NCBI GenBank assembly: GCA_027040785.1
Contig: JALULG010000079.1
Location: 1 to 29,383, forward strand
Length of the DNA: 29,383 bases
From: a bacterium
GTDB taxonomy: Bacteria > Patescibacteriota > Patescibacteriia > JAACEG01
Direction: 5' to 3'
In this document: positions 404 to 13,810 of the stretch, piece by piece
How the letters are laid out: each line of letters opens with the position of its first letter
Numbering within the stretch: position 1 is the stretch's first letter
Made by a program: the position numbers and the translations under genes
Notes under the pieces: model-generated
Databases searched by the model: none
Seen by the model: the letters and a program-made list of their open reading frames with translations, nothing else
Told to the model about the DNA's origin: nothing

Positions 404-1753
404 ATGAAAATAAAAAAATTAATTTTTCAAATCAAAAAAAATCCGATTCAATTTTTAATTTATCTTTTTGTATTTTTTCTGCCCTTGCAAACAACCTATA
501 TTGTCAGAGAGGTTTTTCTGCATAAATCAAAATGGGAGTATTTAACGATTTCCTTTTATATCAGCGACATAATTCTGCTTTTGATTTTTGCGATTTTCCT
601 TGTTTCAAACATCAAATACTTTAAAAAAATAAAAAAATTCAAACTCTCAAAAATCACTTTAACTCTTTTGTTTTTAAGTCTTTTTTCCTTTGCGTCAATT
701 ATTTGGGCGCCGGACAAAGAGCTGGCTCTTTTTTCAGCGGTCAAGCTGTCTTTTGCCATTGCTTTCTTTTTTGTAATTCTCAACACTAAAATTAATTGGC
801 GCAAATTAATGTTTGTTTTTATTTTTACCGCTATGCTTCAAGGCGCCTTCGGTCTTTGGCAATTTTTCAATCAATATTCACCGGCCAATAAATATCTGGG
901 AATCAGCGAACATAAAACAACTACGATTGGAACTTCTGTTGTTCATACAGTTGGCGAGAAAGCCGAAGATTATCGTCGCTGGCTCAGATCTTACGGCGGT
1001 TTCAGTCATCCGAATATTTTGGGCGGATTTTTGGCGATTATGTTGATTTTTATCGTAAACATATATTCGGAAATTAACGAAAAAGAAGAACCCACTTTTA
1101 AAGATTTGTATATCAGATTGTTTTTACTTTTTTCTTTAATTGCCATTTTTGCCGGAATGATAACCAGTTTTTCACGTAATGCTTGGTTGGTGGCGGGCTT
1201 GTCTTTTTTGGCTTTTTTTATAATTCACTTTAAAGACCGCAAAGAAAGCTTGTTAAAAACATCTTTTATTTTTTCAGTAATTTTAATCTTTTTTATTATT
1301 AATTTTTCAAATTTATTTTTATCTCGTTTTACTTTAAACAATCACTTGGAAATTCAATCTATAGAAGAACGAGTAAAGTACACTCAACAAGCCAAAGATT
1401 TGATCAAAGATCATCCTTGGTTTGGCGTGGGCATTGGAAACTATACTTTGGCAGACTACAATAAATTGCAAAAAAAATTACCGGCCTGGTATTATCAACC
1501 CGTTCATAATGTTTTTTTGTTAATCATTGCCGAGCTGGGTATAATCGGACTGCTTTTATTTCTTCTCTTTTTAGTCCTTTTGTTAAAAAATTTCCACAAG
1601 CAAAAAAACAATGTTTTTCTCTTGGCGGTTTTTTCCTTTTTGATTATGATGTTTTTTGACCATTGGATATGGAGTTCGCATTTCGGCTTGTTTTTCTTCT
1701 TTCTTATTTCGGCTTTTTACTATAAAAAAAGTTTTCAAAAAAAATCATCATAG
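404..1753 (+). CDS. O-antigen ligase (Wzy_C/WaaL)-like membrane protein, 449 aa
   Basis: Many TM helices; motifs R-S-Y-G-G-F-S-H-P-N-I-L-G, T-S-F-S-R-N-A-W, P-W-F-G-V-G-I-G-N-Y and P-V-H-N-V-F-L typical of O-antigen ligase/polymerase family. Confidence 0.85.
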   Translation: MKIKKLIFQIKKNPIQFLIYLFVFFLPLQTTYIVREVFLHKSKWEYLTISFYISDIILLLIFAIFLVSNIKYFKKIKKFKLSKITLTLLFLSLFSFASIIWAPDKELALFSAVKLSFAIAFFFVILNTKINWRKLMFVFIFTAMLQGAFGLWQFFNQYSPANKYLGISEHKTTTIGTSVVHTVGEKAEDYRRWLRSYGGFSHPNILGGFLAIMLIFIVNIYSEINEKEEPTFKDLYIRLFLLFSLIAIFAGMITSFSRNAWLVAGLSFLAFFIIHFKDRKESLLKTSFIFSVILIFFIINFSNLFLSRFTLNNHLEIQSIEERVKYTQQAKDLIKDHPWFGVGIGNYTLADYNKLQKKLPAWYYQPVHNVFLLIIAELGIIGLLLFLLFLVLLLKNFHKQKNNVFLLAVFSFLIMMFFDHWIWSSHFGLFFFFLISAFYYKKSFQKKSS

Positions 1754-1778
1754 GATTGTCCAAAACTTCTCCCAAAAC

Positions 1779-1802
1779 AAAAACCGCTTTATAGCGGTTT
1801 TT
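1779..1802. terminator. Bidirectional intrinsic terminator
   Basis: AAAAACCGCT-TTAT-AGCGGTTTTT between two convergent genes. Confidence 0.8.
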
Positions 1803-1836
1803 ACTTGGAAATTATTCTCAAATCAAAATCTTAAAA

Positions 1837-2025
1837 TTAAAGAGGCAAATCTTCTTTGTTAATAGGAGCCAGTCCGGTTTTTTCTCTGACAAAATCAACA
1901 AGTTCTTGATTGTCCGCCCATTTGCAAAATTCGCTCGCCACTTTTTTAAATTCCTCTTGTTTTTCTTCCGGAATTTCAATGTTCTTTAATTTTTCAACGA
2001 TTTCTTTTTCCCTATTTCTTAACAT
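1837..2025 (-). CDS. Small charged hypothetical protein, 62 aa
   Basis: ATG start, E/K-rich helical protein-like composition, ends just before the bidirectional terminator. Confidence 0.6.
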   Translation of the reverse strand: MLRNREKEIVEKLKNIEIPEEKQEEFKKVASEFCKWADNQELVDFVREKTGLAPINKEDLPL

Positions 2026-2575
2026 ATTTCTTGAATTTATTTCAGGGTCTCATGTTTTCACTGTCGCCCTGAATATTTCAGGGTCTCATGTCAAATCCAC
2101 TGTCATCCTGAACATTTCAGAATCTCGGGTAAATATATGTCATCCTGAACTTGTTTCAGGATCTCGTGTTTTTTAAGGTTTCACTCTTTCCTCCGAGATG
2201 CTGAAATAATACCGAATAAATTCAGCACAAGATTCAGCATGACAGGGTAGTTTCACTGTCATTCTGAACATTTCAGAATCTCGTGTCAATTCTACTGTCA
2301 TTCTAAACATTTCAGAATCTCGTGTTTTTTAAGGTTTTACTCTTTCCTCCGAGATGCTGAAATAAATTCAGCATGACATGGGAAGGGCGAGATGCTGAAA
2401 TAATACCGAATAAATTCAGCACAAGATTCAGCATGACATGGGAAGAGAAAGATGCTGAAATAAATTCAGCATGACATGGGGGGGGCGAGATGCTGAAATA
2501 ATACCAAATAAATCAGCACAAGATTCAGCATGACATAGAGGATGGTAATCACTGTCATAAATTTATGACAGTATT
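2025..2575. repeat. REP-like palindromic repeat cluster, locus 2
   Basis: More than 10 units of GTCATYCTGAAC(TTG)TTTCAGRATCTC and the inverse form GAGATGCTGAAATAAATTCAGCATGAC, including nested variants carrying an internal CCGAATAAATTCAGCACAA. Confidence 0.9.
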
Positions 2576-2654
2576 TTTAATACCTTATAACAAAGATATT
2601 TAGCTTATTTTAGCCAAATATTTTATATATACCTCAAATATCTGTCACAAACCC

Positions 2655-2683
2655 TTGACAAGTTTTTAATAATATGCTATAGT
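2655..2683 (+). promoter_or_regulatory. Sigma70-type promoter for the accessory region
   Basis: TTGACA (2655-2660), 17 bp spacer, TGc-TATAGT (2678-2683) extended -10; predicted TSS about 2690. Confidence 0.75.
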
Positions 2684-2689
2684 GTAATG

Positions 2690-3756
2690 TCAAAATCAAA
2701 AAAGCACATTAATAAAAAAAATAAAGAAAACTTCCAAGCACTTGTTTCTTGAGGATTAGAGTAACAAGAAATTGCGGAAACGCGATACTTGTTCAACCCG
2801 AAAGAAAATCAAGCAAGTGGTAAGCAGTGAAGTTCACTTCCTTTCAAATGCTTGTCGAAAGGAGGTGAAACCTCTTCTTATCACAAGAAGATGAGACGTA
2901 CCCTACATAATAAAAAGAGGTTCGCAAATATGAAAAAGGGATTTGCGATAAACTCATAAAATCTTTTTTATTCCTAACCATGGATAAAAAGGATTAAAAT
3001 CCCCAAAATTTAAACAGGACCCGAAAGTAATATCTAATTTGTCCTTGTTTAAATTATAGCATATTTGCAACCCCCTTTCTATTAAGAAGGGGTACTAAAG
3101 TTCTTTTATTCAATAAATCGGGATTGCAACTGGCTTGGCATCACTCCCAAGCTAAGGCATCGGACTTAACCACCCGATGAGCGGAAGTGTAGCTCCTGTT
3201 CCGGAAAAACCGGGGCAAAGCTCGCCAACCTTCCCCAGTCCCTTATAATATTGAGTGATTGTGAGGAAAAATTTGCCTTAAAATAAATTTTTCCTCATTT
3301 CAGTCAATGTTATTGACAATTTCATATTCTAAACACTACACCCAGGAAAGTTTCTTGCAAGGCTTTTCTAAAAGTATTTTTTAGTAGTGTTTAGAATACT
3401 TTTAGCAAAAGTCCTGCAAAAAGCTTTCCTAAAAAGGAAAGCTTTTTGTTCGTTGACAACTGAATAAATCAAAAATATTTTTAATGAAATAGCGCTACTT
3501 GTTATTGGTGGCGTTCGCTCGGATAAAATCGGAGCATTTGAGTTGATGATATTTTTTGATAATGAATTGGTATTTAATATTAATTCTAAAAATACAAATT
3601 AATCTGAAATAATACGCAATTTCGCGTTTTTAGATATTTTCTCCTTTCTAATTGGATTGCCTTGCCCGAGGCGGTTATTCGCCGTTTCAGGGAGGCAATT
3701 CAAAAAAATTTTTTCCCAACCCGGCAGATGATCCGGGAAAGGGGAAAGGAGGAAAC
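2690..3756 (+). ncRNA. Long structured non-coding leader / candidate ncRNA(s) upstream of the Ubl operon
   Basis: No credible ORF over about 1.06 kb; successive hairpins, e.g. 2833-2869, 3120-3242 closed domain, 3245-3313, 3344-3430. No known family recognised. Confidence 0.5.
3422..3450 (+). terminator. Intrinsic terminator overlapping a long alternative hairpin (possible attenuator)
   Basis: AGCTTTCCT-AAAA-AGGAAAGCT followed by TTTTGTT. Confidence 0.6.
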
Positions 3757-5343
3757 ATGAAAAACTATTTCTTAGTCCTCAACGAGGATCAAAAAAATAA
3801 AATCCAGGAAACGGAAGTAGAATTTTGCGACCTGAACATTGACGGCCATGCCGGTGTGGTCGTTGATGAAGAAAATATCAACCCGGCATTACAGGCCATT
3901 GGCATGGTCGTGGTAGCTGAGACGGGAACCACCTTGGAGGGGATTGTCAAAGTTGAACTGCGATCAATTGAAACAGAGATTTTATCTCAATCTGCTGAAT
4001 CACGAGGTAAGGTTGAGGTGGAAAGCTGGAATGGCTATCAAAAAGATGAGTTTAAAAAACTTGTTTCAGACATACTTGTCCCAGTTGTGCAGACAGATAT
4101 TATTTTGTCTGTGCCACATGGAAGCCAAGTAAATCCTGTTTCTGGTGATAAATTTTATATCAGGATTTGGTCTGGGGCTGGAAAAAAAAATGACTTTAAG
4201 GCTCCTCAAAAAATTTGGGGTTATGATGTTGCTTGTCGTGATGCCGGATTCAAACCTACTGGTAAAGGTGTTGCTATCGTGGATATCGAAACCGGATGGG
4301 CGGTTGCCGAGTTGGTAAAGAATAATCTATATATTCACCATGATGCCTGCCACAGTGGCAAAAAATCAGAGGTAGAGATTTTCCGTCTACTTCTTAAGGA
4401 GGTAGTTGTTGAATTAACGCTTTCTCCAGAAGAAAAAGCGGAGCGACAACGGAAGTTGGCGGAGGAGCGCCGGCGGCGTTCGCGGGAGCAGTATATTCAG
4501 GAGTGTTCAAAGCGTCTAAAAAAGACGCTAGAGGGAACGCGGAAAAAAATTGCTGACGGCGAACGCGAGGTTGAGGAGCTCCAGAGGCAACTTGTCCGTC
4601 GAATTCGCGAGCTGGCGGGCGCGCGGCGAAAATTAGAGCAGCTTACATCTTGTCAGAGCGGAGAATTAGAACGGTATGGAAAGGAGTTCGACAAGCTTCT
4701 GGAGGTACCGAAAGTTCGCGACGTGCAGGTTGCATCCGGGGTAATCAAGGTGTTCACGGACACCTTGTATTGTACTGATCCTCGCTCTGGTAGGCTCCAC
4801 GAGATCGGCGCATTTCTTATTGAGATTTATACCGACAATGGCGACATTCGTTGGTATAATCTCACCCGTCAAGTTGATGGGTATGATTGGGGAAAGAGCC
4901 AGGCTCCGCACATCAATGGCAAGGGTAAAGCTTGTTTGGGGACAATGACAGAAATTGTCCCTGAGCTCGTGGCGAATTACGAGTTTGCAGCTTTGACTAT
5001 GGTGGCCATCCAGTTCGTAGAATCGGTTAACACTGATGATGCAGCTGGAAAGTATATTGATAGATGGCCGCTGGCCCCTATTGAACTACAGCCGTCAGAA
5101 ATTCAGGAGGAGCTGAGGCGAGTTGAGAAACTTCGCGGACAAAATCCGTTTCACAACGTAGAGTCTGATCTCAAGTTCGTGCAGATTGCTCGAAAGATGG
5201 AACCCGGATCTCGTATCCGCAATTGTGGTGATTGCTGGTGCTTCACAGGGAGTAATGGCGTAAAGACGTCGCAGCTGGCTAAGCTCCTAGAGGTTAGCGA
5301 GGGGCAGGTTCGGGAAGTTCTGAAAAATTATTTTACGATATAG
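3757..5343 (+). CDS. Coiled-coil plus C-terminal prokaryotic E2 (UBC-like) domain protein, 528 aa
   Basis: True start is probably ATG 3757 after SD AAGGAGG. A long E/R/K/L-rich coiled coil is followed by QAPHINGKGKACLG, which matches the E2 HPN...G.ICL active-site pattern with a catalytic Cys. Operon context with JAB, E1 and Ubl. Confidence 0.75.
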   Translation: MKNYFLVLNEDQKNKIQETEVEFCDLNIDGHAGVVVDEENINPALQAIGMVVVAETGTTLEGIVKVELRSIETEILSQSAESRGKVEVESWNGYQKDEFKKLVSDILVPVVQTDIILSVPHGSQVNPVSGDKFYIRIWSGAGKKNDFKAPQKIWGYDVACRDAGFKPTGKGVAIVDIETGWAVAELVKNNLYIHHDACHSGKKSEVEIFRLLLKEVVVELTLSPEEKAERQRKLAEERRRRSREQYIQECSKRLKKTLEGTRKKIADGEREVEELQRQLVRRIRELAGARRKLEQLTSCQSGELERYGKEFDKLLEVPKVRDVQVASGVIKVFTDTLYCTDPRSGRLHEIGAFLIEIYTDNGDIRWYNLTRQVDGYDWGKSQAPHINGKGKACLGTMTEIVPELVANYEFAALTMVAIQFVESVNTDDAAGKYIDRWPLAPIELQPSEIQEELRRVEKLRGQNPFHNVESDLKFVQIARKMEPGSRIRNCGDCWCFTGSNGVKTSQLAKLLEVSEGQVREVLKNYFTI

Positions 5344-5353
5344 GAGGTTAATA

Positions 5354-6082
5354 ATGTTGAAAAACAGCTGGAGAACTGCGGCAAAAAAATTTTTGCCGCA
5401 CAGTTTCCAAAACAGGGTAGAGTTGACTAATATTCCGAGGATTCTGATCACCCGCCAAGCCTATGAGGATATGTATATCCTCGTAGATGAGGTAAATAAG
5501 GAGGTTGGCTGGATCGGAACAGTAGAACGAGCAGGCAGTGATTTTTTGATAAAGGAAATTTTTCTCCTTGAACAGGAAACACATGTGGCCACCTGCGAAA
5601 TTACGGCTGACGGTTTGGCTGAGTGGGCGCAAGAAATTATGGCTTCCCGTCCTGATGGAATGGAAGTTGTAAATTCATTGCGTTTTTGGGGGCATTCCCA
5701 TGTAAATATGGGAACGAGTCCTTCTGGCCAAGACGAGAGTCAAATGACAGTGTTTGTTGAAAACGGATGTAACTATTTTATCCGCGGCATTTTGAACAAA
5801 CAGGGCCGGATGGAGTTCACGCTGTTTCTGTATGATGTTGGAATAAAGATAAGCGATGTTGAGTGGGAGCTGTATGAACCAGTTGACGAAAGCAGGCGCG
5901 AGCGATGGAAGACGGAGATTGAAGCTAAGGTGAAGGAAAAGTATGTTCCCCCGCCAACTCGCCATGTTGGTTTTGCCCCCTATTATAATAGAAATTGGGA
6001 GGATAATTACGCCGGTATTGTTGGTGGAAATTCTCGCTCCTGTTCTCGCAAGAGCCGAAAAAGGAAAGGAGGGAAGAGATGA
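5354..6082 (+). CDS. JAB/JAMM (MPN+) metallopeptidase, deubiquitinase-like, 242 aa
   Basis: Complete JAMM motif: E (KEVGW) ... H-S-H-x7-S-x2-D (HSHVNMGTSPSGQD); SD AGGAGG upstream. Confidence 0.9.
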   Translation: MLKNSWRTAAKKFLPHSFQNRVELTNIPRILITRQAYEDMYILVDEVNKEVGWIGTVERAGSDFLIKEIFLLEQETHVATCEITADGLAEWAQEIMASRPDGMEVVNSLRFWGHSHVNMGTSPSGQDESQMTVFVENGCNYFIRGILNKQGRMEFTLFLYDVGIKISDVEWELYEPVDESRRERWKTEIEAKVKEKYVPPPTRHVGFAPYYNRNWEDNYAGIVGGNSRSCSRKSRKRKGGKR

Positions 6083-6765
6083 ACAGAGTTGATCCCCTCC
6101 GACATCTTTCAGTATTTTCTCCCAGTAAATTTGGCTCGCGCCGGGTGGACGTTGTTGGTGCAGGCGCTACTGGTTCCCGCGTAGTGCCATCTCTTGCGAA
6201 ACTTGGAATTCAGAATATCCATTGCTGGGATTTTGATGTGGTTGAGGAACATAATGTGGCTAATCAGATTTTTGGAATCGGCGACATCGGAAAGTTGAAA
6301 GTGGAGGCTCTTGCGGAAGTTGTGAAACGCGACACTGGAGCTGAAATTCAAGTTCACGCGGAAAAAGTGGATGGTTCTCAGTCTCTGGGCGAGGTTGTTT
6401 TTTTACTAACGGATACAATGGAATCCCGCAAGCAGATTTGGACCAGGGCGCTTAAGTTCAAGTTGCGCACTCAGTTGGTAGTTGAGACTCGCATGGGCGC
6501 GGATAATGGTAGAGTGTATGCGTTAAATCCCAATAAACCCGGACATATCCGGGAATGGGAAAGGACGTTGTACGATGATGCGGAAGCGGAAATTTCAGCT
6601 TGTGGTGCGAGTGTTAGCGTGGGGCCTACTGCTGAGGTTATTTCAGGTATAGCTGTATGGCAATTAATACGGTGGTTCGCCATTGAGCAAGGAGAGGAAG
6701 ATGACCTTGATAATGAAATAATATTCTCTCTTAGGCCGATGGCGACCATCACCCGGAAATTTTAA
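6079..6765 (+). CDS. ThiF/MoeB-family E1-like adenylyltransferase, 228 aa
   Basis: VVGAGATGS nucleotide-binding loop, DFDVVEEHNVANQ motif, crossover-loop Cys in SACGASVSVGPT; ATGA overlap with the JAB gene. Confidence 0.9.
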   Translation: MNRVDPLRHLSVFSPSKFGSRRVDVVGAGATGSRVVPSLAKLGIQNIHCWDFDVVEEHNVANQIFGIGDIGKLKVEALAEVVKRDTGAEIQVHAEKVDGSQSLGEVVFLLTDTMESRKQIWTRALKFKLRTQLVVETRMGADNGRVYALNPNKPGHIREWERTLYDDAEAEISACGASVSVGPTAEVISGIAVWQLIRWFAIEQGEEDDLDNEIIFSLRPMATITRKF

Positions 6766-6890
6766 TTAACATTTAACCGTCCAACCCTATGACGTTAAAC
6801 TGGGGCTGTAATACTCCGGGGCAGCTCCGGGGCGCTTCGCACAGGCGGTCATTGTGTAAAAAATTCCAAGAACATGAAAGGAGAATGACT

Positions 6891-7100
6891 ATGATTACAG
6901 TAAGAATCGGAAGATTACCAGGACGGATTGAGGAATTGGCGCTTGAGTCTGGGTCTGTTGTAGCTGATGCTCTTGAGGTTTCTGCGCTTGACCCTGAAGG
7001 TTACGAAGTTCGGGTTAACGGCGCACCGACTGACCTAGAAGCGGAACTGACCGACGGTGACACGGTTCTCCTGGTTAAAAAGATCAAGGGCAACTGCTAG
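6891..7100 (+). CDS. Ubiquitin-like (beta-grasp, ThiS/MoaD-like) protein, 69 aa, C-terminus KIKGNC
   Basis: Start ATG 6891 (or 6885) after AAGGAG; VRVNG..........LxDGDTVLLV signature of beta-grasp modifiers; near-terminal Gly. Confidence 0.85.
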   Translation: MITVRIGRLPGRIEELALESGSVVADALEVSALDPEGYEVRVNGAPTDLEAELTDGDTVLLVKKIKGNC

Positions 7101-7860
7101 GCAAGCCCCAGCCAAAAGCCGAAACCATAAAAAGGAGGAGAAAGTGAGAAATAAATTTGTTTTGGCAGGCCGTTTGGGTTGAAGCGGGAAATGGCGGCCT
7201 AAAATAAACATTCCCCGCAGGTTATTTGTTTTATTTACGGAGGCATGGCCCGTAAATATAAACAAGTAACCCAAGCCCCGATATTGGAAGCGGTTAGAGG
7301 AACCGCTTAAACAAAATCCTCACCATGACTTGTCTAGGCAGTTTGGTGGTTCTGTCTAGGCTCGAGCTTGAAGGTAGGCATTGAAGGTCCCGAAGTTAAT
7401 GAGGACTGGCCGAAATCAAGCATCCGTCGTTTTCAATGACGGTAAAGAGCTGTTATATCCGAGTGGCTTCTTTATTGAAGTAGGGGTTTCGGCGCGAGTG
7501 AGCCCTTAACACAAGCGGATAGGTAGCCATACACCGAGACAAGTATGGCAGCTATACGGGTGAGTTAGCGCGACCTGGTATAGCATCTCCTTTGAGGAGA
7601 TACCCTTTAAGGGTGAACTAAAATGAACAGCTCAAAAATTACCCAAGAGAGGCCCGACTGTCTGAATGTGGCGGGCAGGAACGCTAATCTCTTGTATTTA
7701 AATGGCAAAAATCCACATCGTGAGTAGCCTTTGGAAAGAGCGGATGATCTCGGACCAAAAGGTGAAAGCGGGTTGCTTATAGTCAAGGAGTGCTATAAGC
7801 AACTATTTAACCAAACTCCATGGTTTTTTGAAGCGAAAGGTGGTACCTTTCGCTTCTTCT
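7101..7860 (+). ncRNA. Candidate large, highly structured ncRNA
   Basis: No credible ORF; nested long-range stems (7366-7371/7416-7421, 7447-7454/7626-7633, 7456-7461/7516-7521, 7644-7650/7688-7694) and three candidate pseudoknots; ends in a 12-bp hairpin at 7830-7856. Confidence 0.6.
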
Positions 7861-7876
7861 CCGAAACCATGATTTT

Positions 7877-7923
7877 AGATCCTGAAATAATACCGAATTC
7901 TCGGCACAAGATTCAGGATGACA
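7877..7923. repeat. Single nested REP-like unit, locus 3
   Basis: AGATCCTGAAATAATACCGAATTCTCGGCACAAGATTCAGGATGACA matches the nested units at 2191-2243. Confidence 0.85.
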
Positions 7924-7980
7924 TAAATATTAATCGTGGTTTCAGAGGAGGGAAATTTTAAAAAAAATCAACTAAAAAAT

Positions 7981-8135
7981 CTTTGGGCTTTGGTTGCCGG
8001 AAAAATGAAGTTGGCTTTTGGATAACCGCTTTATTTTTTCGGTAACCAAAAGGTTGCCCAAAGTGCCCGAATACGAATTAGATATTTTCAAAGTCTATTT
8101 TTGAAATTTATCTATATTCGTATTCGGGCTTTTTG
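7981..8135 (+). promoter_or_regulatory. Two tandem long imperfect hairpins, the second followed by a T-tract
   Basis: CTTTGGGC/GCCCAAAG (7981-8063); GCCCGAATACGAAT/ATTCGTATTCGGGC (8065-8129) followed by TTTTTGTTTG. Confidence 0.7.
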
Positions 8136-8168
8136 TTTGTCAAAAAATAAAAAAAGGAGGAAAAAGAG

Positions 8169-8549
8169 ATGGCGAAGAAAATTTTGTGGATTAGCCGGCA
8201 TCCAATGCATGGTGTTCAAATGGGCGCTTTGCGGAGGATGTTTGGTGAAGATGTTGTAGTTGAGGAGGACACCCGGCCGTTTGATGGAGCCGAGGCGATT
8301 GTTCGTAGATACCGAAAAGGCGATTATGATGATATTATCGTTGTGGCGCCATATTCGGTTTTAACGCGAATGGTTGATCTTGGCTTGCGGCCACTTTGGT
8401 CAGAGGCGGAAATTGTTCAAGATCCGGAATTAGCGGATTGGCGAGTCAAAAACCGTCTTTATCGTTTCAAACGGTTTCGGCGTGTTCGTCGACTGGTTAT
8501 GGAATTTGATGATCTCGGCCCAGAAGCCGAGAGAAAGGAGGAAGATTAA
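8169..8549 (+). CDS. Hypothetical protein, 126 aa (alpha/beta, WISRH motif)
   Basis: SD AAGGAGG, ATG start, protein-like composition, GC-richer than host. Confidence 0.8.
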   Translation: MAKKILWISRHPMHGVQMGALRRMFGEDVVVEEDTRPFDGAEAIVRRYRKGDYDDIIVVAPYSVLTRMVDLGLRPLWSEAEIVQDPELADWRVKNRLYRFKRFRRVRRLVMEFDDLGPEAERKEED

Positions 8550-8794
8550 TGGGAAGAAAAAAGATTGAATTGGAGAGCTTGATGTTTAGCCAGCCAGCCA
8601 GTGCGGCTATCACAGAGTTTATTCTCAATCTGGAAATCTTTTCCCAAATGACCGGCTCAGGAGATGTGGAAGCTTGGGGAGAGGTTAAAGACAACGGCGA
8701 TTTAGTTGTTAAAGCCGTTGTTAAAACCGCTTCCGGAGGGAAGATTAAAGGAGGTTTAGAAATCCCTTCGGAACACTGGGATTATGCCCAGTAA
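8549..8794 (+). CDS. Hypothetical protein, 81 aa
   Basis: SD AAAGGAGG, TAATG stop/start overlap with the previous gene. Confidence 0.75.
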   Translation: MGRKKIELESLMFSQPASAAITEFILNLEIFSQMTGSGDVEAWGEVKDNGDLVVKAVVKTASGGKIKGGLEIPSEHWDYAQ

Positions 8795-8860: not shown

Positions 8861-10123
8861 TCAAATACTACTCACAAACCAAATCGGTCGGAATTTGACG
8901 GAGCAGTTTTGGTATTGCTCGTCTTTAACAATTGACCAATTGAGAACATAAGCTTCTTTTGGTTTATAGTTGCGAATAAAAGATTTTAATCCGGAAGGAA
9001 TGGTAGTTTGGTTTCCACCTTTGACTTCGATGGGAATCAATTGATTTTCTCGCTTGAGAATGATGTCTACTTCTTGACCTTGACGAGTACGCCAATAATA
9101 GACTTGTCCCCAGACACTCAAATTTTTCAACAGTTCCGTTACCACAAAGTTTTCCGCCAGCGCGCCGAAGTCGGTTGTCTTCGGCAACACCGAAAAATTA
9201 TCCAAGAGATAATTTCTCAATCCGCAGTCAATCAGATAAACTTTGGGGTTGCGAGTTAATTCTTTGATTTTGTTGGTGGAAAAAGGATGGAGCAAGTGAA
9301 GGATAAATGTATTTTGCAGAAGTTCCAAGCGATTTTCCAAAGCAACCCGATTAAGTTCGGAATTGACGGAGAGTTTTTGTTTCTCCAGCAAATTTCCGAT
9401 AAGAGAAGATAAAAGCGCCAGCAATTTCTTAACTTGCAAAGAATTGGCTTTGTAGTTCCAGATTTTAATGTCGCGAGTTAAATAAGAGTTTACCAATTCT
9501 TTCAAAGTTGATATTTTTTCTTCCGTACCGTTCAGATTGTTGACTTCCGGATAACCGCCGAAAGTGAGAAAGGAAACGAGTTTTTGATTAACGGATTTAA
9601 TCAGCCCGGTGGGTAATTGGCCGGAGTCTTGCAAAAGGGAAACAAACTGCCTCGTTTTTTCTTCGTTTTCCCAGTTAATGAATTCCTCAAAATCAAGCGG
9701 CCAAATCGGGATAACGATTTTGCGCCCCGCCATTGATTCATCAATATTGAGATACCAAGAAGCCGAGCCGGTAATAATCGGTTTGATATGCGGATAATGA
9801 TCATGAATTACTTTCAGAGTGGAACCAATTTCCGGAGATCTTTGAAATTCGTCAATAAAAAGATAGTATTTTTGAGAGGTATCTTTTAATGGAAGTGTAT
9901 TCAGAGCGTCTCTTTGGGTTTTCCATTGCTCCAGATCATCTGTTTGTTCTAAATCAAACCAAAGAATTTGGTTTTCAGAGATATTTTTTTCGGAAATTAA
10001 TTTCTCTCTAACCATTTTCATTAGAGTGGTTTTGCCAACTTGTCTGGCACCATTGAGAAGAATAATGTGATGAGAATCAATTTCTTGCCAAATTTTTGGA
10101 AATATTTTTCTGTTTTTTAGCAT
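8861..10123 (-). CDS. AAA+ ATPase (AAA_14 + DUF4143-like, C-terminal PD-(D/E)XK-like motif), paralog 1, 420 aa
   Basis: Start probably ATG 10123 (MLKNRKIF); Walker A GARQVGKT, Walker B FIDEFQ, TGSAS, GGYP, EVDII...IEVK. Confidence 0.88.
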   Translation of the reverse strand: MLKNRKIFPKIWQEIDSHHIILLNGARQVGKTTLMKMVREKLISEKNISENQILWFDLEQTDDLEQWKTQRDALNTLPLKDTSQKYYLFIDEFQRSPEIGSTLKVIHDHYPHIKPIITGSASWYLNIDESMAGRKIVIPIWPLDFEEFINWENEEKTRQFVSLLQDSGQLPTGLIKSVNQKLVSFLTFGGYPEVNNLNGTEEKISTLKELVNSYLTRDIKIWNYKANSLQVKKLLALLSSLIGNLLEKQKLSVNSELNRVALENRLELLQNTFILHLLHPFSTNKIKELTRNPKVYLIDCGLRNYLLDNFSVLPKTTDFGALAENFVVTELLKNLSVWGQVYYWRTRQGQEVDIILKRENQLIPIEVKGGNQTTIPSGLKSFIRNYKPKEAYVLNWSIVKDEQYQNCSVKFRPIWFVSSI

Positions 10124-10190
10124 AGTGATTATTTGATAGTTTAAATATAGATATATTTTGTATATTATACATACAAAATACCATAATTTA

Positions 10191-10218
10191 ATTATACAAC
10201 AAAGAAAATATCTGTCAA
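10191..10218 (-). promoter_or_regulatory. Sigma70 promoter for AAA paralog 1
   Basis: Minus-strand TTGACA (10218-10213), 16 bp spacer, TATAAT (10196-10191). Confidence 0.7.
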
Positions 10219-10269
10219 GAATTCCATTTTCTCGCTGATTTTCAAAATCGGCGGGAGATAGAGCTCTTA

Positions 10270-10411
10270 TCGTCTTCGGCGGTCGCAGAAAAACGCAGAA
10301 CAAACGCAGACAGACGCAGATACCGCTGGAGCGGTCGCGGACAGGCGCAGAACTTACGCAGACTGACGCAGAATGGACACAAACAGACGCGAAAGGATAG
10401 TTCTTTAAAAC
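10270..10411 (+). repeat. CGCAGA periodic repeat element, copy 1
   Basis: 10-11 nt units nnnACGC(A/G)GA with ACCGC-nnn-GCGGTCGC hairpins, followed by GTTCTTTAAAA at 10400. Confidence 0.8.
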
Positions 10412-10558
10412 CTCTCAAACGAACCTTAATGAAAAGGAAAATTATTTTCGTTTTTAGCAAGGTTCGTTTGAGGACCAAACATTTAGGGGCTGAGCATCCC
10501 CGGACCAACTGCTCTGCCTGAGGCGAAAGCCGAGGGCAAAATTCCTTAGGAGGAAATT

Positions 10559-11506
10559 ATGTATAATTTCAAACTCTTTGATCCTCGTCCGGTCCCCGCC
10601 GCCATCGCGACTAACGACCAGATTTTCGCCCAGGGCCCCGTCCTGGGTATTGAGGTCACCGTCCCGGTGCTCGCCCAGCGGTGCGAGCTGGGGAACATTG
10701 ACCCCCAACACACCGGAGGGGACACCTCCACTGCCGCCATTGAGGTGGCGCTAGAATGGCCCCTCCCGCCCGAAGGGGCGATGCTCGCCACCGTGCGGGC
10801 GGATCTGGATTCGGTCGGCGCCATGGCGGTCCTCGCCATGCGTGCCGAGGGACAGATTACTATGTTCCTCGAGGATGAAATTCTTGGGGACGAAGAACTG
10901 TCCCTGAGGATCGCGGCGGTTGCGGCCGCCGATAAATCCAAAACCGAGGAATGGCAGGGGCCGCGCCCCTTGCCGACACCTGAGGATCCCTAGGGCGACT
11001 CCCCTGCGGAGAAGCTCCTGGCTGCCATCGCGGCGTGTGTGGCGGACTTTCGTCGTCCTCTATCCGAGAGGGTAGAAGCGATGCGGAAATGGTTACTCAC
11101 CGGCGAAGAGCCAGAGGAGTACCGTGACCGCGTTGAGCGAGAGCGGGCCGAGATGGTGGCCGCCCTTCAAAGTGGCGCCATCAATGTCCGGACAGAGGCG
11201 GATGGGCGGATCGCGGTGGTGGAGTCCACCCACCGTGCCGCCACTGCCGTGGGCTATCACCTGGTCCCGGTAGTAGTCGCCCTGAATCCGGAGTTCAGGT
11301 TTCAGGGCGGGGAGCCCCACCGCAAGTTTACGGTCTGCCAATTCTCGGCAGGCTATGTGGATTTGCGGAAAGCCCTCCAAGAGCTTAACCAGCTCGAGGA
11401 GGGCTGGGGTGGTTCGCCCACCATTGGGGGCTCCCCGCAAGGGGTAAGCTCCCGCCTCTCCACCGATAAGGTGGTGGAGGTGGTAGCCCGCCACCTGCTC
11501 AGCTAG
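10559..11506 (+). pseudogene. GC-rich DHH/DHHA1-like phosphoesterase-type gene split by an in-frame TAG at 10991-10993
   Basis: ORFs 10559-10993 and 11039-11506 share a frame (PEDP*GDSPAEKLL...); SD AGGAGG; motifs NIDPQH, ADLDSVGAMA and C-terminal GWGGSPTIGGSP. The family call is tentative. Confidence 0.6.
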
Positions 11507-11650: not shown

Positions 11651-12409
11651 ATGCTTACCAAACACCTAACCCAAGCGGGTTTAAATGAAAATCAAGCCAA
11701 AGTTTATCAAGTCCTTTTGGAAAGGGGCGGTCTTTTGGGTGGGGAAATTTCGGTTTTAAGCGGTTTGGGCAGAGCTTTGACTTATAAAATTTTAAATGAC
11801 TTAGAAGAAAAAGATTTGATTTTTAAAGAAAAATCAGGGCAAGTTTATGTTTTCTTTGTGAAAAATCCGCAAAGAATGATTGAGAAAATAAAAAGAAAAG
11901 AAAAAAAATTACGTCAAGCGCGCGAGAATTTAAACTCCCAATTAAGCAATTTTAATGCTTTACATTTTGCTGATTCACCTAAAATATATCGTTACAACGG
12001 TTTAAACGGAGTAAAAAAAGTTTTGGATGATTCTTTAATTAACAATTCAAGCAAAGAAATTTTTTCTTTTCTTGATATGGAAAAATATGCCAATCATATC
12101 AATAATTTTCACAAAATAGATTATCAAGAAAAAAGAAAAAAATTAAAAATCAAAAAAAGAATTATCACTTTAAACAAACAAGCAAATCAAAAAATTGCTG
12201 AAAAGAAAAAAGACGGTTTTACCAAAATAAAATTCAGCGATCATAAAAATTATCCGTCCAATATGAAAGTAAATGTTTACGACAATAAAGTTGCTTTCCT
12301 AAATTTATCAGAACACAATCCTCACGGGATTATTATTGAAAGCAAGGAAATTTTTAATACTTTGAAAAGTATGTTTTTGAACCAATGGTTACTGCTTGGC
12401 AGTCGCTGA
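11651..12409 (+). CDS. TrmB-family transcriptional regulator (wHTH + PLD-like effector domain), 252 aa
   Basis: N-terminal GLNENQAKVYQVLLERG...SGLGRALTYKILNDLEEKDL HTH; YNGLNGVKKVL linker; VNVYDNKVAF C-terminal pattern. Confidence 0.8.
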   Translation: MLTKHLTQAGLNENQAKVYQVLLERGGLLGGEISVLSGLGRALTYKILNDLEEKDLIFKEKSGQVYVFFVKNPQRMIEKIKRKEKKLRQARENLNSQLSNFNALHFADSPKIYRYNGLNGVKKVLDDSLINNSSKEIFSFLDMEKYANHINNFHKIDYQEKRKKLKIKKRIITLNKQANQKIAEKKKDGFTKIKFSDHKNYPSNMKVNVYDNKVAFLNLSEHNPHGIIIESKEIFNTLKSMFLNQWLLLGSR

Positions 12410-12646: not shown

Positions 12647-13810
12647 TCACAACAAAAACCCATAAGTTGTCTGAGGAGTATCGGTGTATTCTTGACTGAC
12701 AAGATAATGTTTTTTCAAACCGATTTTTTTGGCGCGGCGAGTCAAAGTTTTTAAATCTTGTTCAGTAGCGTGAAGTTTGACTTCGTAAGCGATTTTATCA
12801 TTAACGACAAAGTCAATTTCTTGCCCGTCTTTTTGTTGCCAGTATTTTACTTCTCCATGATGACGCAGAAGATTGAAAATACAATTTTCAAAAATTGATC
12901 CTCTGTCCAAACGGGAGAATTGATTAAGCAAGCCGGTATCAATGAAATACAATTTTTTGGCGCCGCGAATTTCCACATCGCGATTGGTGGAATATGGCGG
13001 GATGGTGGAGACAAGATAAGTATCGCGGAAAAATTCCAGATACGATTCAATCGTATCTTTGGCCACACCCAATTCTCTGGATAATTTGGTAATATCAATT
13101 TTGCTCCCCACTCGCTCCATGAGAAGAAAAATGAAATTACGAACTTTGTCTTTTTTGCGAAAATCACTCAATTTTTCCACTTCCAAAGACCAATAAGCGG
13201 AAAACACGTCATCAAGTTTGTTTTCTTTTTCTTGCTTGTTGTCCTCCAAAACAACCGCCGGGAAACCTCCATATTTCAGATATTCTGCGAAATAGGGAGC
13301 GTAATGTAAATAAAGTGATTGATTAATCGGCAAATCGGCTTTTGATTTTTTAAGATTTTTAGCGCGCAGAAATTCATTGAAATTAAAAGGATATAATTCA
13401 AAGATATATTTGCGGCCGGCCAAACTTTCGGTGAACATATTGCGGATATAATAACTGGCGGAGCCGCTGAGAAAGAATTTTATTTGATAATGATCGATAA
13501 GGTATTTTACAACAGAAGGTATATTGGGCATTGATTGAATTTCATCCAAAAACAAATAGATTTGTTTGTTGGGATTAATTCCGTATTCTTCCAGTTTGGC
13601 GGGAATGGTATCGTAATCAAAGGCGTCAAAAACAATTTGTTGACGAGGGTTGTCCAAGTCAAAAAAAAGCTTGTTGTCCGATTTTATTTCGTCAAAAATC
13701 ATTTTAAGCATAGTCGTTTTGCCCACTCGACGCATTCCGGTAACAATGATAGCTTCCGGTGATTTGATAAATCGCTCAATTTGAAAATGTAAATCTCGTT
13801 TGATTAACAT
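12647..13810 (-). CDS. AAA+ ATPase (AAA_14 + DUF4143-like), paralog 2, 387 aa
   Basis: GMRRVGKT, FLDEIQ, LSGSAS, YGGFP, EIDFVV...YEVK. Confidence 0.9.
   Translation of the reverse strand: MLIKRDLHFQIERFIKSPEAIIVTGMRRVGKTTMLKMIFDEIKSDNKLFFDLDNPRQQIVFDAFDYDTIPAKLEEYGINPNKQIYLFLDEIQSMPNIPSVVKYLIDHYQIKFFLSGSASYYIRNMFTESLAGRKYIFELYPFNFNEFLRAKNLKKSKADLPINQSLYLHYAPYFAEYLKYGGFPAVVLEDNKQEKENKLDDVFSAYWSLEVEKLSDFRKKDKVRNFIFLLMERVGSKIDITKLSRELGVAKDTIESYLEFFRDTYLVSTIPPYSTNRDVEIRGAKKLYFIDTGLLNQFSRLDRGSIFENCIFNLLRHHGEVKYWQQKDGQEIDFVVNDKIAYEVKLHATEQDLKTLTRRAKKIGLKKHYLVSQEYTDTPQTTYGFLL

What the first reader, a model, noticed from the sequence alone, without database searches (positions are those of the whole stretch)
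2655..7860. Possible integrated system: Ubl-conjugation operon bracketed by two structured RNAs in one transcription unit
Seen: promoter, structured leader, E2-JAB-E1-Ubl and the ornate RNA are all on the + strand, with REP-like units at both ends (2025-2575 and 7877-7923). No clear U-tract terminator lies between Ubl and the RNA. Inference: the RNA may be a functional partner of the conjugation machinery (scaffold, sensor or even substrate), much as retron or type III toxin-antitoxin RNAs partner their proteins. I know of no described Ubl system with a large ncRNA component, but that needs a literature check.
Basis: inference. Interest (0 to 1): 0.8.

Follow-up and report, generated by a model that had tools for sequence, protein, structure and literature searches.

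The report
Ubiquitin-like operon with its own RNA
A ubiquitin-like protein-tagging gene cassette in an ultra-small (CPR-type) bacterium carries a conserved, uncatalogued ~760-nt folded RNA right after its last gene, and that RNA displays the same small hairpin that sits in front of the first gene, which points to RNA-based control or partnership not reported for such systems.

Summary
A complete E2-JAMM-E1-Ubl cassette lies on the + strand at 3757-7100. It is followed, with no terminator between, by 760 nt that lack an ORF and fold strongly.

The RNA is real and modular, with three modules: dom5, mid and dom3. Each module recurs downstream of Ubl genes in homologous cassettes and shows compensatory base changes. 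None matches Rfam.

New here: dom3 presents an 8-nt loop, C-R-N-W-U-G-A-W. The same loop sits on a simple hairpin about 35 nt upstream of the E2 start codon in 15 of 32 distinct cassettes, where 1.2 are expected by chance.

In about 550 CPR genomes sampled, the RNA appeared only in this genome and once more, there directly after a Ubl gene of the same family.

The upstream "leader" is composite. It holds promoter P1 plus about 190 nt shared with one relative, then unique palindromes, a terminator-like hairpin, a second conserved promoter and a 300-nt 5'UTR. A single bracketed transcription unit is therefore unlikely.

More distant cassettes lack a detectable RNA.

Most likely mechanism (inferred): the operator hairpin and the large RNA bind one shared factor. 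No RNA-seq exists for this DNA.

An earlier scan note on another genome (e1-5160973) reported a structured leader of such an operon.

The parts
2655..2683 (+). Promoter P1 (TTGACA-17-TATAGT, TG-extended)
   Evidence: The promoter and the next ~190 nt align with L013:6529-6766 (nhmmer E = 1e-8).
2684..2875 (+). L1: ~190-nt structured RNA segment driven by P1, conserved only with L013
   Evidence: Alignment shows hairpins kept through changes on both sides, read by eye from that alignment. Not found in the other 70+ loci.
2876..3415 (+). Hairpin-rich filler with long near-perfect palindromes, unique to this genome
   Evidence: Self-matches on the opposite strand at 3245-3313 and 3344-3430. No homologue in any related locus.
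3416..3449 (+). 15-bp terminator-like hairpin flanked by an A-run and a U-run
   Evidence: -22.4 kcal/mol, z = -5.8.
3453..3481 (+). Promoter-like P2 (TTGACA-17-TATTTT), the probable operon promoter
   Evidence: The TTGACAAYTGAATAAAT box recurs in L013 (~7426), with a looser version in L082 (9752).
3482..3756 (+). Conserved 5'UTR of the E2 gene
   Evidence: nhmmer: window 3452-3755 matches L082:9752-10028, E = 7e-19.
3720..3738 (+). Operator-type hairpin: CCCGG stem, 8-nt loop CAGAUGAU, 7 nt before the Shine-Dalgarno sequence
   Evidence: The same loop word lies at -80..-20 of the E2 start in 15 of 32 distinct loci, against 1.2 expected. Stems covary.
3757..5343 (+). E2-like protein: N-terminal alpha/beta region, ~90-residue coiled coil, UBC core 301-441 with invariant H385 and C393, and a C-terminal extension
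5354..6082 (+). JAB/JAMM metallopeptidase
   Evidence: JAMM motif at residues 114-127. PADLOC JAB E = 1.2e-3. Conserved next to the E2 gene in almost all loci.
6079..6765 (+). Single-domain ThiF-type E1 (228 aa)
   Evidence: Pfam PF00899 E = 1.5e-20. All NCBIfam hits fall below their cut-offs.
6885..7100 (+). Ubl (beta-grasp), family C-terminus ...KIKG-N
7133..7182 (+). AGGAGG Shine-Dalgarno-like box plus a 12-codon mini-ORF at the 5' edge of the RNA
   Evidence: Same layout (7-14 codons) in L082, L013, L083 and L034. Meaning unknown.
7126..7362 (+). RNA module dom5
   Evidence: Profile hits in L082, L083 and L013 at E = 1e-50 to 1e-65, though these sequences built the profile. 10 of 29 predicted pairs are compensatory.
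7452..7580 (+). RNA module mid (three-way junction plus hairpin), absent from L082 and L013
   Evidence: Single-sequence nhmmer hits in L034 (E = 8e-17) and L059 (E = 6e-10). 12 of 41 predicted pairs are compensatory.
7630..7790 (+). RNA module dom3: pseudoknotted domain carrying the signature stalk hairpin (loop at 7741-7748)
   Evidence: Model R1: 96.6% of cells paired, 10 of 17 pairs compensatory, slid controls at most 54%. Full-length hits in L013, L082, L083, L084 (two) and L034 (two).
7820..7870 (+). 3'-terminal long helix enclosing a 12-bp hairpin (7830-7856) with a weak U tract
   Evidence: The hairpin is kept in L082 with a different sequence.
7877..7923 (+). REP-like dispersed repeat unit (not part of the system)
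8059..8140 (+). Strong intrinsic-terminator-like hairpin with a U-run; possible end of the operon-plus-RNA transcript
   Evidence: -37.8 kcal/mol, z = -7.5.

Best explanation
SHOWN. The region is a horizontally acquired Ubl-conjugation cassette of an undescribed, mainly CPR family. Its genes are a modular UBC-type E2, a JAMM peptidase, a short ThiF-type E1 and a Ubl ending in G-N. The cassette has its own RNA component. (a) A hairpin with the 8-nt loop C-R-N-W-U-G-A-W sits about 35 nt upstream of the E2 start codon. (b) A ~760-nt modular structured RNA (dom5, mid, dom3) begins about 30 nt after the Ubl stop codon. Its dom3 module shows the same loop on a stalk: an AGUA/GAA internal loop that resembles loop E, helix P1, an AWA/GAN internal loop, and a 3-bp helix.

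INFERRED. The RNA is made as the 3' part of the operon transcript that starts at P2 (3453). The operator hairpin and the large RNA bind the same trans-acting factor, most plausibly a protein of the cassette. The factor bound at the operator holds back translation of the E2 gene. The large RNA competes for the factor or stores it, as a decoy or platform, so that RNA level or RNA integrity sets the activity of the tagging system.

The segment 2655-3450 is a separate, poorly conserved unit and not an obligatory partner.

My odds are about 0.9 for the anatomy and the operon-specific conserved RNA, and about 0.4-0.5 for the shared-factor operator/decoy mechanism.
For: Cassette identity.

Signs of horizontal acquisition: GC is about 47% in the cassette and RNA against about 33% in the flanks. 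Carriers are scattered: labels include Saccharibacteria, Paceibacterota, Parcubacteria, Buchananbacteria, Obscuribacterales and Thermoanaerobaculia, and only 1 of 150 class-level genomes holds it.

RNA homologues on the operon strand next to the Ubl or E2 genes: L082, L013, L083, L084, L034/L085 and L059, with weaker matches in L022, L035, L086 and L033. All 24 R1 hits lie on the + strand.

Covariation:
- dom3: 10 of 17 pairs compensatory, 96.6% of cells paired against at most 54% for slid controls.
- dom5: 10 of 29 pairs compensatory.
- mid: 12 of 41 pairs compensatory.
- G-U pairs fit the + strand.

Shared loop: it lies at -30 to -65 of the E2 start in 15 of 32 distinct loci, against 1.2 expected, binomial P about 1e-13; the loci are related, so this overstates. 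Closing stems differ between loci: CCGG, GCGC, GTGC, GAGC, ATAC, AGGC.

Specificity:
- Modules are single-copy in the own genome, and the hairpin word with a 4-bp stem occurs at chance level there (25 found, 23.7 expected).
- R1 was found in none of the other 150 class genomes.
- In genomes that hold the cassette, R1 hits lie at the cassette only, apart from one marginal hit at E = 0.03.
- The stalk pattern occurs in 1 of 400 phylum genomes, and there a full dom3 follows a Ubl gene of the same family by about 130 nt.

Co-transcription: no promoter-like or terminator-like site lies between Ubl and the RNA. The RNA starts 15-75 nt after the preceding stop codon in L082, L013 and L083, as in the window.
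Against: - No transcript data exist, so co-transcription, processing and the RNA ends are inferred.
- No binding factor is identified. Short E2 forms that lack the N-terminal region (L020, L022) still have the hairpin, so that region is not the obvious binder.
- A large RNA holds only one or two copies of the loop, unlike multi-site sponges such as CsrB. The RNA is far more elaborate than a decoy needs to be.
- The operator hairpin does not cover the Shine-Dalgarno sequence.
- Cassettes with E2 identity below about 44%, and a few nearer ones (L032, L037), show no such loop or module.
- Covariation rests on only 3-7 related sequences per module. The -40 hairpins were selected for having 3 closing pairs, so only the fourth pair (15 of 17 paired) is an unbiased count.
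Confidence: 0.45

Rival explanations
1. Functional partner of the enzymes. The large RNA would be a scaffold that assembles E2, E1 and Ubl. Alternatively it would hold the machinery inactive until infection, as type III antitoxin RNAs or retron RNAs do, or even serve as a substrate or target of modification. The 5'UTR hairpin would then be a second docking site.
For: The RNA is tightly linked to the Ubl gene whatever the gene order: E2-JAB-E1-Ubl-RNA here, and Ubl-RNA-E2 in L033, L041 and L039. A Ubl-dom3 pair persists in G402, where no E2 was found. The RNA has an ornate, pseudoknotted, multi-domain build. Other notes of this scan report Ubl cassettes joined to retron RNAs (unchecked leads).
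Against: No reverse transcriptase, nuclease or recognisable RNA-binding domain is in the cassette. Many homologous cassettes lack the RNA. Characterised Bil and Bub systems work in vitro without RNA (PMC11601596).
Confidence: 0.15
2. Ligand-sensing or otherwise self-contained cis-regulatory RNA. dom3 would be an aptamer-like sensor (riboswitch-like, or sensing the ribosome or a tRNA), and the -40 hairpin a reduced version of it. Both would act in cis on the neighbouring genes.
For: In several cassettes, dom3-like modules lie 200-450 nt upstream of the E2 gene within its leader: L035, L086, L033, L022. The loop and internal-loop nucleotides are highly conserved while the stems vary, as in aptamers.
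Against: An 18-nt hairpin is too small to be an aptamer, yet it keeps the same loop. In the window and five other loci the large RNA lies after the last gene, with nothing obvious to regulate in cis; a REP unit and a strong terminator separate it from the next gene. No expression platform is evident.
Confidence: 0.15
3. Structured 3'UTR or an independent passenger. The RNA would stabilise the operon mRNA against 3' exonucleases, or be a separate non-coding gene of the mobile island (or a leader for the downstream d1-d2 genes), travelling with the cassette without acting on it.
For: It ends in a long terminal helix. The d1 gene downstream is conserved in L082 and L013, at 69% identity by tblastn and 70% in the alignment for L013. 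Synteny among the three nearest loci could partly reflect common descent.
Against: The shared signature loop in the 5'UTR of the E2 gene would then be unexplained. The RNA keeps its link to Ubl in loci that lack d1-d2 (L083, L084, L034, G402), and d1 is cut off from the RNA by a strong terminator.
Confidence: 0.12
4. No function: decayed coding sequence or repeat debris that merely folds well.
For: AT-rich CPR genomes carry many hairpin repeats, such as the 45-copy REP family. The middle of the upstream leader does look like such filler.
Against: Compensatory changes occur in three modules. Strand-specific conservation holds across cassettes whose proteins are only 40-60% identical. The RNA is single-copy and has no ORF under code 11 or 25.
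Confidence: 0.03

Closest known systems
Bil systems (Type I/II BilABCD; Ubl, E2, JAB peptidase, E1), as summarised in PMC11601596
   Same: The same four activities sit in one operon: a Ubl that needs C-terminal trimming, a cysteine-bearing UBC-fold E2, a JAMM peptidase and an adenylating E1. There is no E3. Distribution is sporadic and island-like.
   Different: The E1 here is a 228-aa single ThiF domain, not the IAD-AAD-CYS architecture. The E2 carries a ~200-aa N-terminal region and a long coiled coil. No Bil model of PADLOC, and no NCBIfam model above its cut-off, matches. No RNA component is described for Bil.
Bub (6E/DUF6527) operons and Type II CBASS Cap2/Cap3
   Same: Bacterial ubiquitination-like cassettes with E1, E2 and peptidase activities. 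The E1 adenylation domain gives partial PADLOC 'E1-E2' (Cap2) hits, best E = 3e-13.
   Different: No DUF6527 protease is present. The E2 has an invariant Cys, whereas Bub uses Ser/Tyr oxyesters. There is no E1-E2 fusion and no CD-NTase. Those systems are regulated by protein repressors (CapW/BrxR, CapH+CapP); here conserved RNA elements sit in the corresponding place.
Translational operator hairpins with RNA decoys (MS2/R17 coat-protein operator, ribosomal-protein and T4 RegA operators; CsrA with CsrB/RsmZ)
   Same: A small hairpin with an invariant loop and free-varying stem lies next to the ribosome-binding site of the first gene. The same loop is displayed again on a separate structured RNA.
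   Different: No binding protein is known. There are only one or two loop copies per large RNA. The hairpin does not overlap the Shine-Dalgarno sequence or the start codon. The decoy candidate sits in the same transcript region and is much larger and more ornate.
Large ornate bacterial RNAs (GOLLD, ROOL, OLE, HEARO, raiA)
   Same: Length of 600-800 nt, multi-domain, pseudoknotted, found in mobile or accessory DNA, function unknown or only partly known.
   Different: No Rfam 15 model matches, even at E up to 5. This RNA has a strict link to one protein-coding cassette and shares a motif with that cassette's 5'UTR.
RNA-protein defence modules (type III toxin-antitoxin ToxIN, retrons)
   Same: A structured non-coding RNA is encoded beside, and probably co-transcribed with, the proteins of an accessory cassette.
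   Different: No endoribonuclease toxin or reverse transcriptase is present. There is no tandem short-repeat array and no msr-msd layout.

Membership tests
Bil (BilABCD) ubiquitin-like antiphage systems | Ubl gene with a beta-grasp fold and a C-terminal glycine exposed by processing | tested here: met
   71-aa protein with weak TGS/ThiS-type hits (faint ThiS/SAMP2 on homologues). About 40 homologues end in ...K-I-K-G-N. The fold itself was not modelled.
Bil (BilABCD) ubiquitin-like antiphage systems | E2 with UBC fold and catalytic cysteine | tested here: met
   AF2 model, pLDDT 83. The ten best VIA-align matches are all E2 enzymes over residues 301-441, Z 7.0-7.7; this Z is middling by the tool's own note. 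H385 and C393 are invariant in 29 homologues.
Bil (BilABCD) ubiquitin-like antiphage systems | JAB/JAMM peptidase | tested here: met
   H-x-H-x7-S-x2-D motif at residues 114-127. PADLOC JAB E = 1.2e-3. No Pfam hit.
Bil (BilABCD) ubiquitin-like antiphage systems | [quoted passage not shown] | tested here: not met
   The E1 is 228 aa with one ThiF domain at residues 19-201. All NCBIfam ThiF/MoeB-type hits fall below their cut-offs. No PDB sequence match at E up to 1e-5.
Bil (BilABCD) ubiquitin-like antiphage systems | Protection against phage through Ubl conjugation to phage proteins | not testable with these tools
Bub (6E/DUF6527) operons | DUF6527 serine protease, and E1/E2 lacking catalytic cysteines (oxyester chemistry) | tested here: not met
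   No DUF6527/PF20137 hit in any cassette protein. The E2 has an invariant Cys393.
Known RNA families (Rfam 15, including GOLLD, ROOL, OLE, HEARO, raiA, riboswitches) | Covariance-model match at or near the gathering score | tested here: not met
   No hit at gathering thresholds over the whole window. Only miRNA or snoRNA noise at E up to 5 over 2000-8200.
Translational operator plus decoy RNA (works-like comparison) | Hairpin with a conserved loop and covarying stem beside the ribosome-binding site of the regulated gene | tested here: met
Translational operator plus decoy RNA (works-like comparison) | The same recognition motif repeated on a separate RNA | tested here: met
   dom3 stalk hairpin in the window (7737-7752), L082, L013, L083, L084 (two) and L034 (two). 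One or two copies only.
Translational operator plus decoy RNA (works-like comparison) | An identified protein that binds both sites and represses translation | not testable with these tools
   Needs binding and reporter assays.
Retron / type III toxin-antitoxin RNA-protein modules | Reverse transcriptase or ToxN-type endoribonuclease encoded with the RNA | tested here: not met
   No such domain in the cassette or its immediate neighbours.
Riboswitch | Conserved aptamer upstream of the regulated genes, with an expression platform | tested here: inconclusive
   dom3-like modules lie in the E2 leader in some loci but after the last gene in others. No platform was recognised.

The most novel reading that the evidence does not exclude
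The Ubl-conjugation cassette is an RNA-dependent system. The ~760-nt RNA would be an obligatory partner, serving as an assembly platform, an infection sensor whose decay or cleavage releases the E2/E1/Ubl machinery, or a nucleic-acid target of the Ubl chemistry. The hairpin in the E2 5'UTR would be the second docking site of the same ribonucleoprotein. This would be the first ubiquitin-like conjugation pathway with a dedicated large non-coding RNA.
Probability: 0.2. Interest if true: 0.9.

Novelty: new variant of a known kind. Interest (0 to 1): 0.72.

Why it matters
Bacterial ubiquitin-like conjugation systems (Bil, Bub, CBASS Cap2/3) are a young field, and the descriptions I read treat them as protein-only, with protein repressors where regulation is known. 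This cassette family is absent from the databases and papers I could search. It carries conserved, covarying RNA modules that match no Rfam family, and they are joined to the operon's translation start region by a shared hairpin loop.

That offers a concrete and cheap experiment: loop mutants, the RNA supplied in trans, and pull-downs. The experiment bears on how such systems are kept silent or switched on. It also adds a new large structured RNA with a defined genetic partner, which most ornate RNAs lack. If the RNA proves to be part of the machinery rather than a regulator, it would be a new kind of ribonucleoprotein.

Tried and rejected
- Rfam at gathering thresholds (whole window) and at E up to 5 (2000-8200): nothing meaningful.
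- BLAST of the RNA against 100 relatives: only chance 20-40-nt matches.
- Both non-coding regions are single-copy in the own genome.
- Foldseek of the whole 528-aa model against the PDB: no match, because the long coiled coil and several domains interfere. A PDB search with the family profile gave only coiled-coil noise.
- PDB sequence searches with the E1 and the JAB protein: nothing.
- IMG/VR scan for the stalk pattern: two hits, both inside coding sequence, with no RNA module and no cassette, so taken as chance.
- The GC-rich kilobase at 10.5-11.5 kb was tested as a possible further RNA of the system: no homologue in any cassette locus.
- Alternative genetic code 25 opens no ORF in the RNA.
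- I considered pairing between the loop and a GGAUCA in the E2 coding start of the window. I dropped the idea because L013 lacks it, judged by eye from the sequence.
- I considered a kink-turn reading of the internal loop and could not fit the consensus.
- I did not run complex prediction, because jobs with RNA get no verdict and no candidate binder stood out.
- Literature searches for Ubl operons with structured RNA, and for new CPR RNAs, found nothing relevant.

Full report
CONTEXT

The window is contig C79 of a 1.04-Mb, 224-contig genome that is 93% complete. The genome size, and the CPR labels on most records that carry the same cassette, mark it as a CPR/Patescibacteria-type organism. The only public run that holds the DNA is a hydrothermal-vent metagenome.

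THE PROTEIN CASSETTE

Four + strand genes fill 3757-7100.

- The 528-aa first protein has no Pfam, NCBIfam or PDB sequence match. It has 115 homologues in metagenomes, with invariant H385 and C393 in a PH...C.G.N context. An AlphaFold2 model (pLDDT 83) shows an N-terminal alpha/beta region, a ~90-residue coiled coil and a C-terminal domain.
- Foldseek on the whole model found nothing. VIA-align against 48,161 chains placed ten E2 ubiquitin-conjugating enzymes at ranks 1-10, covering residues 301-441 with Z 7.0-7.7. The Z is middling by the tool's own note, but the hits are consistent and cover the whole UBC core.
- The second protein has an intact JAMM motif and a weak PADLOC JAB hit.
- The third is a 228-aa single-domain ThiF-type E1. 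It falls below every NCBIfam cut-off.
- The fourth is a 71-aa Ubl whose family ends almost invariably in K-I-K-G-N. That fits trimming to a C-terminal glycine by the JAMM enzyme.

The order E2-JAB-E1 is kept in nearly all of the roughly 70 related loci fetched. The cassette and the RNA are about 47% GC in flanks of about 33%. Only 1 of 150 class-level genomes has the cassette. These points indicate a mobile accessory cassette.

Against the definitions in PMC11601596, it has the Bil gene set but not the Bil E1 architecture. It also lacks the Bub hallmarks. I therefore file it as a relative, not a member.

THE DOWNSTREAM RNA IS REAL AND BELONGS TO THE CASSETTE

The stretch 7101-7870 has no credible ORF under code 11 or code 25. 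It folds with z = -6.9, matches no Rfam family and is single-copy.

nhmmer with the window sequence found homologues on the operon strand just after the Ubl or E1 genes in:
- L082, nearly full length, E = 1e-22 to 1e-24;
- L013 and L083;
- L034 (identical to L085) and L059.

The matches show that the RNA is modular:
- dom5 (7126-7362) is shared with L082, L013 and L083;
- the mid module (7452-7580) is present only in the window, L034 and L059;
- dom3 (7630-7790) is shared with L082, L013 and L083.

Profile and covariance-model searches then found dom3 twice in L084 and twice in L034. They also found weaker dom3-like matches upstream of the E2 gene in L022, L035, L086 and L033. All 24 hits of model R1 lie on the + strand.

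Structure support:
- In dom3, 96.6% of cells pair and 10 of 17 pairs show changes on both sides. Slid controls reach at most 54%, and no shuffle reaches the observed values.
- Two dom3 helices cross, so the domain is pseudoknotted.
- dom5 has 10 of 29 predicted pairs compensatory.
- Sample sizes are small (3-7 related sequences), so this is good but not overwhelming evidence.

THE LINK TO THE OPERON'S START

The most conserved piece of dom3 is a stalk hairpin. It consists of an outer helix, an AGUA/GAA internal loop that resembles a loop-E motif, helix P1, an AWA/GAN internal loop, a 3-bp helix, and an 8-nt loop C-R-N-W-U-G-A-W.

The same loop, on a plain 4-6-bp hairpin, lies at 3720-3738, seven nucleotides before the Shine-Dalgarno sequence of the E2 gene. 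It lies at the equivalent place in many relatives.

An unbiased count used the loop word alone at -80 to -20 of a defined E2 start. It gave 15 of 32 distinct loci, against 1.2 expected from the background frequency. The loci are related, so the nominal P of 1e-13 overstates the case.

The closing stems differ freely between loci. Because I selected instances with three closing pairs, only the fourth pair, paired in 15 of 17, is an independent count.

Across all loci, hairpins of this kind outside the matched coding regions number 65 on the operon strand and 22 on the other.

SPECIFICITY

- In the own genome the loop-plus-stem word occurs at chance level (25 found, 23.7 expected). Only the cassette copy has a GC stem followed by a Shine-Dalgarno sequence.
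- R1 found nothing in the other 150 class-level genomes.
- In five genomes that hold the cassette, R1 found only the cassette copies, apart from one marginal hit at E = 0.03.
- A strict stalk pattern hit 1 of 400 phylum-level genomes. That hit is a full dom3 (E = 7e-22) lying about 130 nt after a Ubl gene of the same family at a contig start. IS110-type transposases follow it, and no E2 was found in that assembly.
- Two IMG/VR pattern hits are coding-sequence coincidences.
- Where the Ubl gene precedes the E2 gene (L033, L041, L039), the RNA motifs sit between them. The RNA thus keeps its place between Ubl and E2 in both gene orders. In L035, L086 and L022, however, dom3-like matches lie upstream of the E2 gene with no detected Ubl before them.

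LIMITS OF THE ASSOCIATION

Cassettes whose E2 is less than about 44% identical, and a few nearer ones (L032, L037), have neither the loop nor detectable modules. Some have other hairpins before the ribosome-binding site. The RNA component is a trait of one branch of the family, or it has diverged beyond detection elsewhere.

THE UPSTREAM 'LEADER'

P1 (2655-2683) is an excellent promoter. It and the next ~190 nt align with L013, with hairpins kept through double changes, so this looks like a small structured RNA unit. It is absent from all other loci; in L082 a GIY-YIG gene occupies the place.

The stretch 2876-3415 is unique and made of long palindromes. At 3416-3449 lies a 15-bp terminator-like hairpin, immediately followed by a second promoter-like site, P2. 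The P2 box recurs in L013, more loosely in L082, and the downstream 300-nt 5'UTR is conserved with L082.

The REP-like units at both ends belong to a 45-copy dispersed family.

My reading is that the operon's transcription unit probably starts at P2. It would run through the Ubl gene into the RNA, since there is no promoter or terminator between them. It would end at the 7830-7856 hairpin or at the strong terminator at 8059-8140. This is inference: no RNA data exist.

MECHANISM

Shown: a cassette-specific structured RNA, and a signature loop shared between that RNA and the E2 5'UTR.

Inferred: both sites are recognised by one factor. A hairpin with an invariant loop and a free stem beside a ribosome-binding site is the classic form of a protein-bound translational operator. 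A second display of the same loop on a large RNA suggests competition or storage, as in a decoy or platform. I put this at about 0.45.

The rivals are:
- a true RNA partner of the enzymes, 0.15;
- a self-contained sensor, 0.15;
- a stabilising 3'UTR or passenger gene, 0.12;
- junk, 0.03.

Points against my reading are the low copy number of the loop, the unexplained complexity of the RNA, the hairpin not covering the Shine-Dalgarno sequence, and the lack of any candidate binder.

NOVELTY

No Rfam family matches. No paper in the searchable library links ubiquitin-like operons to structured RNA. Bub operons are reported with protein repressors.

I reached the hairpin independently before reading that note, and I could not check whether it is the same motif. 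A further note (e1-5160967) describes an unclassified CPR Ubl cassette that is probably of this family.

Noticed in passing
window 7133-7182; also L082:13637-13692, L013:11576-11630, L083:4522-4559, L034:7395-7442: A strong AGGAGG box, a start codon 5-8 nt later and a 7-14-codon mini-ORF open the large RNA in five loci. The peptides are mostly unrelated, except for an N-K-F-V stretch in the window and L083. In three loci the stop codon falls in the conserved UGAAGC at the first helix of dom5. This could couple translation to RNA folding.
   Followed up: partly
window 2655-2875 and L013:6529-6766: A near-consensus promoter plus a ~190-nt structured segment is conserved between just these two cassettes, upstream of the operon's own promoter. 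It may be a small RNA gene of unknown role.
   Followed up: partly
window 10500-11500: About 1 kb at 59-66% GC in a genome whose flanks here are about 33% GC. ORFs of 130-155 aa lie on both strands, with no Pfam hit and no Rfam hit. No homologue was found in the related cassette loci or elsewhere in the genome.
   Followed up: partly
window 11651-12409; L082:6475-7290, L085:2323-3099, L086:3849-4649: A TrmB-family regulator gene recurs near the cassette. In three relatives it is divergent and 1-2.7 kb upstream of the E2 gene; in the window it is 4.5 kb downstream. It is a possible transcriptional regulator of the island.
   Followed up: no
window 8169-8794 (d1, d2); L082:14618-15234; L013:12341-12727: Two small genes without family matches follow the RNA in the three nearest loci. 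d1 is about 70% identical to its L013 counterpart, which is better conserved than the cassette enzymes (40-54%). In the window a strong terminator separates d1 from the RNA.
   Followed up: partly
window 2025-2575, 3604-3620, 7877-7923 and 40 other places in the genome: A REP-like dispersed repeat (core CTGAAATAATACCRAAT inside an inverted-repeat unit) with 45 copies on both strands. It forms a tandem cluster just upstream of P1.
   Followed up: partly
L099 (G402:C44) 163-881 and 1411-4766: A Ubl gene and a full dom3 module sit at a contig start, followed by two IS110-type transposase genes. No E2 gene was found in that 97%-complete assembly. This is either an assembly break or a cassette remnant that keeps only Ubl and the RNA.
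   Followed up: partly
L013:11631-11640: A run of ten N inside the dom5 homologue of this public record, either masked or an assembly gap. It weakens the dom5 alignment there.
   Followed up: no
window 8861-10303 and 12647-13810 (- strand); L082:15337-16605; L083:6948-7385: AAA_14/DUF4143 ATPase genes flank the cassette here and in two relatives. There are several divergent copies in the window.
   Followed up: no
L020, L022 (E2 genes of ~340-355 aa): Short E2 forms that lack the N-terminal region still carry the -40 hairpin with the signature loop.
   Followed up: partly
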